Assembly: GCF_003018115.1 (NCBI RefSeq)
Contig: NZ_CP027458.1
DNA from: Escherichia coli
GTDB lineage: Bacteria; Pseudomonadota; Gammaproteobacteria; Enterobacterales; Enterobacteriaceae
Reading direction: 5' to 3' (one strand)
Length of the DNA stretch: 64,000 bases
The position numbers were made by a program. Within the stretch, counting starts at the first letter, position 1; each line of letters starts with the position of its first letter. Below, in pieces: positions 45,001 through 48,000 of this stretch.

Positions 45001-48000
45001 GTCGTGCCTGATATTTCAGGGAGAGTTTTACTGCCGGATACGGTCCGGGCAGGGTGACATAACAGGTCAGATCCGGCAGAGACTGAATGTCGGAATAACT
45101 GACCAGCGTCTGACGCTCCATATCCTTACCGGTCGATACCCCGTCACGTACCGGATCAGCACCGTAGGAATACTGCTCGCTGGCTTTCAGGTGCTCTTTC
45201 TCACCAATTTCACCGGCAGCGAACTCTGCAATCTTATGGCTCGGGGAACGGAAAAAGGCACGGGTGTTCATGACATCAAACAGCGTGGCCGCCGCTTTCT
45301 CCCCGTAGATATCTTCCAGCTGGGCATAGGACTGGATACCGAACACATAACAGCCGCCGAACTTACGGGCTTCCGGCAGGATCTCCACCAGGTCCGGGAG
45401 TTTATGCAGCGTGGGCAACTCGTCACAGAAGAACCACACACGACGGTTACGGTTTTCTCCCATTGCCAGCAGACCACGAATGGCAATGGACAGCCACATG
45501 GAGATCACCGGCTTCAGGGAGGCATGGGTGTCGGCGTTCGACGAGATAAACAGCCAGCCGTTTTTCTGATCTTCCCGGACACCACGCATCCAGTCACGGA
45601 TGGTGAAGGGCTCACCGTTATGCTCAATCCCCTGCAGGTAACGGATGGCTTTCACGTAGTTGGTCAGCACAGCACGGATGGATATGGCCGTTTTCTCGAT
45701 TTTCTCTTCCACCAGGTTGGCCGCCGGTGAATTACGCAGGAAGGTACGCAGCTTTTCAATTTTGATGGAAAGCAGTGTGTCCACCAGTTTGCTGTAGCTG
45801 CGGTTGGGGTCATTACGCATCAGGTACGCAGCTTCCGCAAAAATGGTACGTCCTGAACCCTGCCAGAACGGGTCCTCTTTTGTGCCCATCGGGATCAGCG
45901 TGTTCGCGGTATTATCAAAATCCGGCTGTGTCAGGCACTCCTTCCACAAATCCCAGGCGGCACAGCGGGCATCCAGCGGATTCAGGATTTTATCGATGGA
46001 GGGATCATAGTAACTTTTAACAAATTCCCCTGAACGGTCATAAATCACCACCATATCACCGCGCTGACGGGCGTAGTTGGCCAGACGACGGATAACTTCC
46101 GACTTACCGGCCCCGACCGTGCCGTGCAGACAGAAGTTCTGGATTTCAGAATCCCGGATAATCGGCAGATCGCCAATCCGGATATCGGAATCCTTGCCGT
46201 CTTTTTTCAGCATCCGGGCAACGTCTTTCGGATTGTCTGTCAGCTGACGACCACCTGTGACTTCATTTTCGCTCTGTTGTTTACCCTGACGCCCCAGAAT
46301 CCAGGAGACAACAAAGAAGGTGATCAGGCAGATAACCAGGGCCACGACAGAAGCCAGAACGAATGCCGACCATAACTGCTCACCACACCAGATCATATAT
46401 TTATCATGCAGTACCTGAGCCGCGTTCATCCGGAAGGTTTTGCCGTAATACTGGATCTCATAGACCGGCTGGGACCTGATTAAATCCCGCATGCCTTCCA
46501 GCGTGGTACACCACCAGTAAATACAGCCGTTCACAAACGTCTGCCAGCTTATTTTTACCCATAAAACCAGACCTACGAGTATCCAGAAAAAAATAAACAG
46601 GCAGTAAAGCATGATATTGGCGATCTGGCTGAACATGCGGATACGCATGGACGCAATCTGACCGCCCTGGGTCATATCCTTTGCGTTAAAACTCATGATG
46701 ATATTCCGAAGAAAGAAAGTCAGTCGGACTGATTATTAATGATGAAAAGATTAATAACCGTTAAATTCCGGCTTCGCCGGCAACACTTCACGGTCGCACA
46801 AAGAATTTGCACAACCGCTCAGTGTTTTCATATTTATTTCGAAAACGCCGGGGAGAAATAAAATTTATTTTATTTCTTTCCGGGGTTGGACAACGAGCAA
46901 AGCGAGGCGTCAGTCAGGAGGCCAGCAGGACTGGCCCGGATAATTTTCTTGACGTCATTAAAGTTAATAAATAAAGATCAGCTATTTACCGTCATAAGCA
47001 TCCATATTTGATCAACACCTGATGAATCTTGATCAACAGCAACTGGCTCAATTGAAAGTGACCATATTTCTTTACCATTGACAATACAGGAAAAATCATC
47101 AAAGAAATAACCTTTATTTACATACTCATCCAGTTTTTCTGTTTGAAATCTATACGCAATCTTTTGTTTTTCAAAGTTCTGATAAGAATCCCTGAATGCT
47201 TCATATGCTCCGAAATGAGCATACAATCCCATATCACGAAAGGCTTTAGCAACTTTATAGCCGGATTCAATAAAGGTATCAGAGGTGAATTTCTTAATTC
47301 GTCTCTGCCCTCCACTTATAGCACATAAATTTTCCACATTCACTGATGGTGCCGCTACTTGTTTATCAACAAACAGAGCCGGAGTATATAGGAAATACGT
47401 ATCAGAACCGCCAGTACGGGTAATATAGTTATAATTCTCATTATGAATGTTATACATTACCTGGTCGGACAAAAACTCTCTTATATGTTTATTCTTATAT
47501 TTATATAAAGTTCCTTCAGATACTTGTGTACTTATGCATCCCTGAATGAGGAAACAAATTGATAACATTATGTATTTTCTGATTAACACGACTGCCCCCT
47601 TTATTCCATAATAGGGATTTTATATGAGACTGGTACAGCTTTATCCAGTCTCATCCTAAATTACAATATATTAGAAATTGATTTGGCCAGCTGGTCTTCG
47701 AGAACAGGCTTCGCCTCTTCAAATTTCAGGTTAACCTTGTTGGCATTAGATACCACACGGGTCTGGTATTTATGTTGATTTCCGGTTGATGTGCTGGTCT
47801 GCACTTTTGCACCGGAGGTTCCCTGACGGAGAGCTGCAACATTATCAGTTCTGACTTCAGATGTTGTCCGCTCTGCAATCTGCACATCCGTGATCATGGT
47901 GTAGTTGATATCCTCCACCATTGCATCGGCAGCCATACCAATCAACCCTGTGGCAATCCCGACACCCAGCGCCGCACCGGCAGAGCTGGAGTTATATCCT

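What the first reader, a model, noticed from the sequence alone, without database searches (positions are those of the whole stretch)
46978..47589. AT-rich lipoprotein gene inserted between traT and traD
In F itself traT is followed directly by traD. Here a 203-aa lipoprotein gene with distinctly lower GC than its neighbours occupies that gap on the same strand, so it should be co-expressed with the transfer genes. Candidate roles are exclusion, a phage or colicin receptor decoy, or cell-envelope modification during mating.
Basis: partly seen in the sequence, partly recalled or inferred. Interest (0 to 1): 0.5.

Follow-up and report, generated by a model that had tools for sequence, protein, structure and literature searches.

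The report
Uncharacterised lipoprotein gene beside plasmid exclusion genes
A real, conserved but never-characterised outer-membrane lipoprotein gene sits among the genes that stop F-type plasmids from re-entering cells that already carry them; it may be a third, unrecognised exclusion factor, but that is an inference and its function is unproven.

Summary
Window 46978-47589 (minus strand) encodes a 203-aa protein with a GTG start, a strong Shine-Dalgarno sequence and a lipobox (Cys18). Its GC is 0.34, against 0.49-0.53 for traT, traD and traG. It lies between the traT stop codon and the hairpin that follows traT directly in F.

It is a real gene. dN/dS is about 0.12, and 84 of 85 plasmid copies are intact. 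It occurs in 77 of about 4,000 F-like plasmids in PLSDB and in 93 of 5,426 complete E. coli genomes, always on plasmids. It has no Pfam, NCBIfam, PADLOC, PHROG or PDB match. A confident AlphaFold model (pLDDT 82) has no structural relative. Every public name is "hypothetical protein", and most entries are mis-started at an internal ATG, which removes the lipobox.

Homologs at 49-80% identity always lie between traG and traD, but in different slots: after traT, between traS and traT, in the traS position where no traS is present, or in a plasmid that lacks traT. The gene is unrelated to TraT, TraS, IncC Sfx or R100 YhfA, which occupies the same slot in R100.

My best guess, at about 0.35, is a non-enzymatic envelope protein with an exclusion-like role. 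An unrelated envelope-protective cargo gene is almost as likely. Function is unresolved.

The parts
46978..47589 (-). Coding sequence of the 203-aa predicted lipoprotein ('X'), stop codon included
   Evidence: ORF. Annotated with the same ends in the 100%-identical plasmid NZ_CP129265. dN/dS about 0.12.
47595..47601 (-). Shine-Dalgarno sequence AAGGGGG, 5 nt upstream of the GTG start
   Evidence: Read directly from the sequence.
47536..47589 (-). Signal peptide and lipobox (residues 1-18, lipidated Cys18, +2 residue Ile)
   Evidence: A lipobox is present in all 17 full-length family members and none has Asp at +2.
47624..47654 (-). Hairpin directly after the traT stop codon, in the 71-nt traT-X spacer
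   Evidence: Fold energy -18 kcal/mol, z = -3.4. The same stem is kept in the Salmonella copy through changes on both arms. No U-tract follows it.
46919..46937 (-). GC-rich hairpin after X; a variant of the hairpin that follows the traT stop codon directly in F
46924..47676 (-). The X-associated block absent from F: the last ~16 nt of traT, the spacer, X, and ~55 nt of 3' sequence
   Evidence: Most F-like plasmids match only window 46923-46700 of the intergenic query. pO113-type plasmids without X match this traT allele only as far as nt 716-719 of 735. Junction alignment.
46844..46887 (-). Terminator-like hairpin followed by UUUU, in the intergenic region upstream of traD that is shared with F-like plasmids
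   Evidence: Inverted repeat I1. Fold z = -3.7.
47661..48392 (-). traT (surface exclusion lipoprotein), the upstream neighbour
   Evidence: Pfam TraT E = 1e-81; NCBIfam equivalog. Annotation.
48424..48927 (-). traS (entry exclusion protein)
   Evidence: Pfam TraS E = 2e-85. Annotation.
44498..46696 (-). traD (coupling protein), the downstream neighbour
   Evidence: ORF. Annotation of the homologous gene.

Best explanation
X is a genuine accessory gene of the exclusion region (traG-traS-traT-traD) of F-type conjugation systems.

Shown by sequence rules and selection analysis: it encodes a secreted, lipid-anchored protein of about 185 mature residues. The Lol sorting rule (no Asp at +2) sends it to the outer membrane. 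It has two conserved cysteines, no membrane-spanning segment and no conserved catalytic-type residues.

Inferred from position: in this plasmid it is transcribed with traT. It lies between the traT stop codon and the hairpin that ends the traT unit in F.

Inferred mechanism, not shown: in a cell that already carries the plasmid, X acts as a non-enzymatic binding protein in the envelope. It limits redundant mating, either by destabilising the mating pair or by intercepting a periplasmic part of the incoming transfer apparatus. On this reading it works alongside TraT and TraS and could partly substitute for them.

X spreads among F-like plasmids by recombination through the flanking tra genes.
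For: It is a real gene. dN/dS is 0.11-0.12 with dS up to 0.94. No 40-codon window exceeds pN/pS of 0.44. 84 of 85 plasmid copies are intact.

It is a lipoprotein. All 17 full-length family members have a lipobox, down to 16% identity. None has Asp at +2. The mature protein nearly always has exactly two cysteines, and there is no hydrophobic segment after the signal peptide.

It is probably not an enzyme. The only invariant residues across the family are C18, C89, G94, C168 and W176.

Its position is tied to the exclusion region. Every homolog at 49% identity or more lies between traG and traD. The arrangements are traS-traT-X-traD in E. coli, Shigella, Klebsiella and Salmonella, traS-X-traT in a Salmonella contig, and traG-X-traT with no traS-like ORF. 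The other two are traG-X-traT in Providencia alcalifaciens and traG-traS-like-X with no traT in P. rettgeri.

Its history is discordant with the backbone, as is typical of exclusion genes. X is 50-64% identical where TraG is 37-39% and TraD 43-49%, yet only about 57% identical where TraD is 89% and TraS 43%.

It lies inside the traT unit, upstream of the F-type traT hairpin.

There is precedent. The two known surface-exclusion factors, TraT (PMC11733297) and IncC Sfx (PMC11493245), are both outer-membrane lipoproteins and are unrelated to each other.
Against: No experiment or homology links X to exclusion. The traT-traD interval is a general cargo slot that also holds yhfA, a DUF2726 gene, vapBC or traR in other plasmids. 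Spread by flanking homologous recombination would keep any cargo gene in this region whatever its function.

Remote family members lie outside transfer operons: in a fimbrial/EAL context, next to an H-NS gene, next to ccdB, and among hypothetical genes on a Photobacterium MOBH plasmid. Another lies next to traM.

Nearly identical X (98%) occurs with different TraS and TraT alleles and with the common R100-type TraN, so there is no sign of co-variation with a cognate transfer protein. About 98% of F-like plasmids lack X.

No promoter was identified, and a conserved hairpin lies between traT and X.
Confidence: 0.35

Rival explanations
1. X is an envelope-protective cargo gene unrelated to conjugation. 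As a lipoprotein it might mask or inhibit a phage or bacteriocin receptor, act as an orphan immunity protein against a periplasm-acting toxin, or contribute to serum resistance. It simply rides in a permissive, well-expressed slot of the tra operon.
For: The slot holds various unrelated cargo genes. Remote homologs occur in non-conjugative, island-like contexts. GC is uniformly low, 0.31-0.35, whatever the host replicon, as expected of horizontally acquired accessory genes. X shows no co-variation with TraS, TraT or TraN alleles. Carriers are enriched among pathogenic E. coli and Shigella plasmids.
Against: X has no match to any PADLOC defence model or PHROG family and no homolog in 50,697 phage records. 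No toxin or effector gene is adjacent. The close subfamily lies within traG-traD in five different arrangements across Escherichia, Salmonella and Providencia plasmids.
Confidence: 0.3
2. X is a donor-side helper of the F-type transfer apparatus, for example in outer-membrane complex assembly, pilus dynamics or mating-pair stabilisation with particular recipients.
For: X is embedded in the transfer operon on the same strand. Outer-membrane lipoproteins are structural parts of type IV secretion systems, such as TraV (established knowledge). One remote homolog lies next to traM and a lytic transglycosylase gene.
Against: X is absent from about 98% of F-like plasmids, including F and R100, which transfer efficiently. 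It lies with the non-essential exclusion genes rather than the assembly genes. It does not track any TraN type.
Confidence: 0.12
3. X is a decaying or meaningless ORF in AT-rich inserted DNA.
For: It has no known domain, and annotation pipelines disagree about its start.
Against: dN/dS is about 0.12 at dS up to 0.94. 84 of 85 copies are intact. The lipobox and cysteine pair are conserved to below 30% identity. The structure prediction is confident, with pLDDT 82 and pTM 0.78.
Confidence: 0.03

Closest known systems
TraT (F-type surface exclusion and serum-resistance lipoprotein, PF05818)
   Same: Both are outer-membrane lipoproteins encoded in the exclusion region of F-like plasmids, next to each other and probably on the same transcript. 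Both have homologs outside plasmids (PMC11733297).
Sfx of IncC/IncA plasmids (Rivard et al. 2024, PMC11493245)
   Same: Sfx is an outer-membrane lipoprotein on a conjugative plasmid with an F-type mating apparatus. It was annotated as hypothetical until tested, is unrelated to TraT, and was found to be a second exclusion factor beside the entry-exclusion protein. This is the best functional analogy for what X might be.
   Different: Sfx has 286 aa against 203 for X. hhalign probability is 22.6%, confined to the signal-peptide/lipobox region. No IncC plasmid appears among the 85 tblastn hits. Sfx lies beside traN, whereas X lies beside traT, traS or traG. Exclusion activity is shown for Sfx and not for X.
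YhfA of R100 (hypothetical protein between traT and traD)
   Same: It occupies the same traT-traD slot on the same strand and is likewise uncharacterised. It co-occurs with X in pCFSAN004180G, there as a frameshifted copy.
   Different: YhfA is a 245-aa single-pass membrane protein with no lipobox. hhalign probability is 0.3%. It is far more widespread than X.
TraS (F-type entry exclusion protein, PF10624)
   Same: In two contigs X occupies the position directly after traG where traS normally lies. Both genes are AT-rich and diverge quickly.
   Different: TraS is a multi-pass inner-membrane protein. X has no membrane-spanning segment after its signal peptide and gives no Pfam TraS hit.
Small entry-exclusion lipoproteins of P-type systems (TrbK of RP4, Eex of pKM101) and phage superinfection-exclusion lipoproteins (Cor, Llp), recalled from established literature and not tested here
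   Same: These are lipid-anchored, non-enzymatic proteins that a mobile element expresses in its host to block entry of related elements.
   Different: They are much smaller proteins. The family-level searches and the phage search found no similarity to anything outside X's own family.

Membership tests
Bacterial lipoproteins (signal peptidase II substrates) | N-terminal signal peptide with a positively charged start, a hydrophobic core and a lipobox ending in Cys | tested here: met
   MLIRKYIMLSICFLIQGC with Cys18. A lipobox is present in all 17 full-length family members.
Bacterial lipoproteins (signal peptidase II substrates) | Outer-membrane sorting: no Asp at position +2 | tested here: met
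   The +2 residue is Ile here and I, V, S, T or A in all homologs, never Asp. This is a sequence rule only.
Bacterial lipoproteins (signal peptidase II substrates) | Actual lipid modification and membrane localisation | not testable with these tools
   Needs globomycin sensitivity, palmitate labelling and cell fractionation.
TraT family (PF05818) | Sequence or fold homology to TraT | tested here: not met
TraS family (PF10624) | Multi-pass inner-membrane protein with TraS homology | tested here: not met
   No Pfam hit. The highest 19-residue hydropathy after residue 20 is 0.76.
Sfx family (IncC surface exclusion) | Homology to Sfx94/SfxRA1 | tested here: not met
   hhalign probability 22.6% over 41 columns of the signal peptide and N-terminus only. 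No IncC or IncA plasmid among the tblastn hits.
Sfx family (IncC surface exclusion) | Reduces incoming transfer when expressed in recipients | not testable with these tools
   Requires mating assays.
R100 YhfA | Homology to the R100 traT-traD ORF | tested here: not met
   hhalign probability 0.3%.
Known anti-phage defence proteins / phage protein families | Match to a PADLOC or PHROG model, or a homolog in a phage genome | tested here: not met
   No PADLOC family matched. The only PHROG hit has E = 0.05. tblastn against 50,697 phage records found no match.

The most novel reading that the evidence does not exclude
X founds a third, structurally new family of exclusion factors in F-type conjugation systems. 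It would be an outer-membrane lipoprotein that blocks redundant mating independently of TraT and TraS and can stand in for either one. It occupies the traS position in plasmids with no traS (L005, L007) and is present where traT is missing (the Providencia rettgeri plasmid).
Probability: 0.25. Interest if true: 0.7.

Novelty: new variant of a known kind. Interest (0 to 1): 0.45.

Why it matters
Exclusion systems decide which plasmids can enter which cells. They also protect plasmid-bearing cells from the damage caused by runaway self-transfer (PMC12445648). In F-like plasmids only TraS and TraT are recognised as exclusion factors. In IncC plasmids a second factor, Sfx, stayed hidden as a "hypothetical lipoprotein" until 2024 (PMC11493245).

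X has the same profile. It is a conserved, selected lipoprotein with no known fold. It sits among the exclusion genes of plasmids that include STEC, Shigella and ESBL-associated E. coli plasmids. If it modulates exclusion, it would alter plasmid compatibility and spread in about 2% of complete E. coli genomes.

If it does something else, it is still an orphan envelope protein on virulence plasmids that most database entries annotate without its signal peptide. Correcting that start would let automated pipelines recognise it as a lipoprotein.

Tried and rejected
1. X as part of a fixed traT-X module. The window's traT allele is distinct, at about 83% nt identity to the common allele, and occurs in 71 plasmids. 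Only the 19 plasmids at 99% or more carry X. The 52 pO113-like plasmids carry this allele without X, and most X carriers (for example pO86A1) have F/R100-type TraT. Rejected.

2. X as the "YhfA" named in the pEntH10407 paper (PMC2762410). YhfA is R100's own traT-traD ORF and is unrelated to X. Rejected.

3. Homology to Sfx or TraT. Rejected.

4. Link to a TraN type. X-positive E. coli plasmids carry the common R100-like TraN, and L005 has an unrelated TraN tip. The test does not discriminate.

5. A phage-derived gene or known defence gene. No hits.

6. A mobile cassette with terminal repeats. Only an 11/13 imperfect 13-nt direct repeat flanks the block, which may be chance.

7. A known RNA element in the spacers. 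No Rfam match.

9. A wider taxonomic survey. The scan of species-representative genomes failed with the broad alignment. With the closer alignment it returned one locus, a K. pneumoniae ATCC 13883 plasmid scaffold.

10. A promoter for X. The consensus scan found none upstream of X on the minus strand.

Full report
**Observation.** The window carries an ORF at 46978..47589 on the minus strand that encodes 203 aa. It starts with GTG at 47589-47587. The sequence AAGGGGG lies five bases upstream. The N-terminus MLIRKYIMLSICFLIQGC has a positively charged start, a hydrophobic core and a lipobox ending at Cys18, and the +2 residue is Ile. GC is 0.342 (GC3 0.279), against 0.486 for traT, 0.531 for traD, 0.517 for traG and 0.482 for the whole window. 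traS is also low, at 0.388. Pfam and NCBIfam identify the neighbours as TraT and TraS. The minus-strand order is traG, traS, traT, X, traD, which matches the annotation of the 100%-identical plasmid p_STEC1588_2. In F itself traT is followed by 252 bp with no gene and then traD.

**Is it a real gene?** Yes. Three copies that differ by dS of 0.45-0.94 give dN/dS of 0.11-0.12. No 40-codon window exceeds pN/pS of 0.44. Of 85 plasmids with a protein-level match, 84 hold a full-length copy in one piece. AlphaFold2, run on an 18-sequence family alignment, gives a confident alpha/beta model with mean pLDDT 82.2 and pTM 0.78.

**Where exactly is it inserted?** Most of the ~4,000 F-like plasmids that match the intergenic query share only window 46923-46700, the ~224 bp upstream of traD. 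In plasmids without X the traT stop codon is followed directly by a GC-rich hairpin, GGAGGCUGGU..ACCGGCCUCC. In the window, X lies between the traT stop and a variant of that hairpin at 46937-46919. The X-specific block seems to begin in the last ~16 nt of traT, because pO113-type plasmids that share this traT allele but lack X stop matching at nt 716-719 of 735. A second hairpin at 47654-47624 (z = -3.4) lies in the 71-nt traT-X spacer. It is preserved in the Salmonella copy by changes on both arms. A terminator-like hairpin followed by UUUU lies further downstream at 46887-46844, in the shared region. X therefore sits inside the traT transcription unit as that unit is delimited in F. Promoter and terminator activities around F traS and traT were mapped by Jalajakumari et al. 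1987, a reference cited in PMC12445648. I have not read that paper, and co-transcription of X with traT is an inference. No flanking repeats convincingly mark a mobile cassette, and no Rfam family matches.

**Distribution.**
- At nucleotide level X is in 77 PLSDB plasmids: 72 Escherichia, 3 Shigella and 2 Klebsiella. 76 of the 77 are typed as conjugative.
- At protein level it is in 85 plasmids. This adds Salmonella (about 80% identity), Providencia (50-53%) and Photobacterium (34%).
- Among complete E. coli genomes it is in 93 of 5,426, at 94 places, all on plasmids.
- A scan of one genome for each of 100,044 species found only a K. pneumoniae ATCC 13883 plasmid scaffold.
- The window itself is a STEC virulence plasmid carrying ehxA and an epeA/espP-type autotransporter gene.

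Across the family the invariant residues are C18, C89, G94, C168 and W176, with Q77, L88 and P182 nearly invariant. All 17 full-length members have a lipobox and none has Asp at +2. Nearly all have exactly two cysteines in the mature protein, and there is no hydrophobic segment after the signal peptide. I read this as an outer-membrane-anchored, disulfide-bonded, non-enzymatic protein. The disulfide and the localisation are inferences.

**An annotation error.** Most database entries are 159-160 aa and start at an internal ATG (MYNIHN...). These include forms seen on 353, 302 and 123 contigs, as well as pO86A1, pCFSAN004180G and a Salmonella contig. That start removes the signal peptide and lipobox. 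The upstream in-frame sequence encodes a conserved lipobox in every lineage, so the long form is correct.

**Genomic context of homologs.** This is the most informative result. Homologs at 49% identity or more always lie between traG and traD, in five arrangements:
- traS-traT-X-traD in E. coli, Shigella, Klebsiella and Salmonella pSE49-2444.
- traS-X-traT-traD in a Salmonella contig.
- traG-X-traT with no traS-like ORF in two contigs. There X begins 6 nt after traG.
- traG-gap-X-traT in Providencia alcalifaciens.
- traG, a traS-like gene, then X, with no traT, in P. rettgeri.

Remote members at 16-34% identity are not tied to this region:
- One lies in a three-gene cassette with a luxR-type regulator between a traJ-like gene and traM of another F-like plasmid.
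- One lies among hypothetical genes on a Photobacterium MOBH plasmid.
- Others lie near fimbrial and EAL genes, next to ccdB, or next to an H-NS gene.

**Evolutionary behaviour.** X does not follow the backbone. Where TraG is 37-39% and TraD 43-49% identical to the window's, X is 50-64% identical. Where TraD is 89% and TraG 77% identical, X is only about 57% and TraS 43%. Among E. coli plasmids, X at 98% identity is found with the window-type TraS and with R100-type TraS, which are 74% identical to each other. It is also found with different TraT alleles. X-positive E. coli plasmids carry the common R100-like TraN variable region, whereas L005 has an unrelated one. X is therefore exchanged among F-like tra regions, most simply by recombination through the flanking tra genes. 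It shows no short-term co-variation with TraS, TraT or TraN. X's GC is 0.31-0.35 in every replicon, whose own GC ranges from 0.38 to 0.52.

**The slot is modular.** R100 carries a different gene between traT and traD. This is yhfA, a 245-aa single-pass membrane protein, and it is unrelated to X (hhalign probability 0.3%). The pEntH10407 paper's "YhfA" next to traD is this gene and not X (PMC2762410). pCFSAN004180G has X followed by a frameshifted yhfA. Other plasmids hold a yhfA-like ORF, a DUF2726 gene, vapBC or traR in the same interval. This weakens any argument from position alone.

**Comparison with known exclusion factors.** TraT is a decameric outer-membrane lipoprotein (PMC11733297). 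X is unrelated to it by Pfam, by hhalign (5.9% probability) and by fold search. Sfx of IncC and IncA plasmids is a 286-aa outer-membrane lipoprotein that is constitutively expressed. It was shown in 2024 to be a second exclusion factor whose specificity is set by TraN (PMC11493245). I identified SfxRA1 in pRA1, between traN and acaB. It aligns with the X profile only over the signal peptide and N-terminus, at 22.6% probability. No IncC plasmid is among X's tblastn hits. X is therefore not a member of the TraT, TraS, Sfx or YhfA families. It resembles TraT and Sfx only in kind.

**Most likely mechanism.** I commit, at about 0.35, to an exclusion-like role. On this reading X is made in plasmid-bearing cells together with TraT, is anchored in the outer membrane, and limits redundant mating by binding a component of the incoming apparatus or of the mating junction. 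Five observations support this:
- The close subfamily is confined to the exclusion segment.
- X is present where traS or traT is missing.
- Its history is discordant with the backbone.
- Its residue conservation points to a non-enzymatic protein.
- There is precedent in two unrelated lipoprotein exclusion factors, TraT and Sfx.

Against it stand the cargo nature of the slot, the non-conjugative contexts of remote homologs, the lack of co-variation with transfer proteins, and the absence of any experiment. Almost as likely, at about 0.30, is an unrelated envelope-protective cargo function. A donor-side helper role is less likely (about 0.12), and a meaningless ORF is effectively excluded.

**Verdict.** It is a new protein family with no known fold, in a biologically meaningful place, and it is directly testable. 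However, the case for any particular function is circumstantial, and the slot is known to hold other cargo. Interest is 0.45. I rate novelty as a new variant of a known kind: an accessory outer-membrane lipoprotein of a plasmid exclusion region that belongs to no known family.

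Noticed in passing
window 47458-47589 (minus strand); also L002, L004, L006: Most public entries for this protein are 159-160 aa and start at an internal ATG (MYNIHN...). That start deletes the signal peptide and lipobox. The GTG start with its Shine-Dalgarno sequence, and the lipobox conserved in every lineage, show that the 203-aa form is correct.
   Followed up: yes
L016 15463-16200 (R100); L004 3684-4703: R100 has a different uncharacterised gene, yhfA, in the traT-traD slot. It encodes a 245-aa single-pass membrane protein. pCFSAN004180G has X followed by a frameshifted yhfA, so the slot is modular: empty in F, yhfA in R100, X here, and both in that plasmid.
   Followed up: partly
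L005 7994-8772; L007 7994-8771: Two contigs have traG followed after 6 nt by the X homolog and then traT. There is no traS-like ORF anywhere between traG and traD. I could not establish whether entry exclusion is absent, encoded elsewhere, or taken over by X.
   Followed up: partly
L009 5394-7350 (Providencia rettgeri plasmid NZ_CP086258): This F-like transfer region has a traS-like gene and the X homolog but no traT between traG and traD. The related P. alcalifaciens plasmid has traT but only a 341-bp gap where traS would be.
   Followed up: partly
window 47661-48392: The window's traT is a distinct allele, about 83% nt and 91% aa identical to the common F/R100 allele. No plasmids fall at intermediate identity (none at 90-95%). 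pO113-like STEC plasmids that lack X share this allele. The amino-acid differences include the stretch [16 protein letters not shown] against ESQGWLNRGYEGAAVG.
   Followed up: partly
L012 6914-8597: A 30%-identical family member lies in a three-gene cassette with a LuxR-type regulator and an 82-aa ORF. The cassette is inserted on the opposite strand between a traJ-like gene and traM of another F-like plasmid.
   Followed up: no
L015 5967-6592 (F, NC_002483); L011 8108-8733; L004 from 6857: A vapBC toxin-antitoxin pair, or at least vapC, lies on the opposite strand directly after traD in the RefSeq F record and in two X-positive plasmids. This is another cargo insertion inside the transfer region.
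   Followed up: no
window 44498-46696: traD here encodes 732 aa, with a run of QQP repeats near the C-terminus. The otherwise 100%-matching plasmid annotates a 759-aa TraD. This suggests repeat-length variation, which I did not check by alignment.
   Followed up: no
window 47624-47654 and L011 4888-4917: The hairpin between traT and X keeps its stem in the Salmonella copy through changes on both arms (GAGACUGG/CCAGUCUC becomes AAGCCUGG/CCAGGCUU). This hints at a conserved role, such as partial termination or transcript stabilisation.
   Followed up: partly
window 46920-46932 and 47685-47697: An imperfect 13-nt direct repeat (11 of 13 matching) brackets the X block. One copy is in the 3' end of traT and the other in the hairpin after X. 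It could be a recombination footprint or chance.
   Followed up: no
window 1-25000: The window's first 25 kb matches STEC virulence-plasmid DNA carrying ehxA, an epeA/espP-type serine protease autotransporter, a YadA-like adhesin and lactate-utilisation genes.
   Followed up: no
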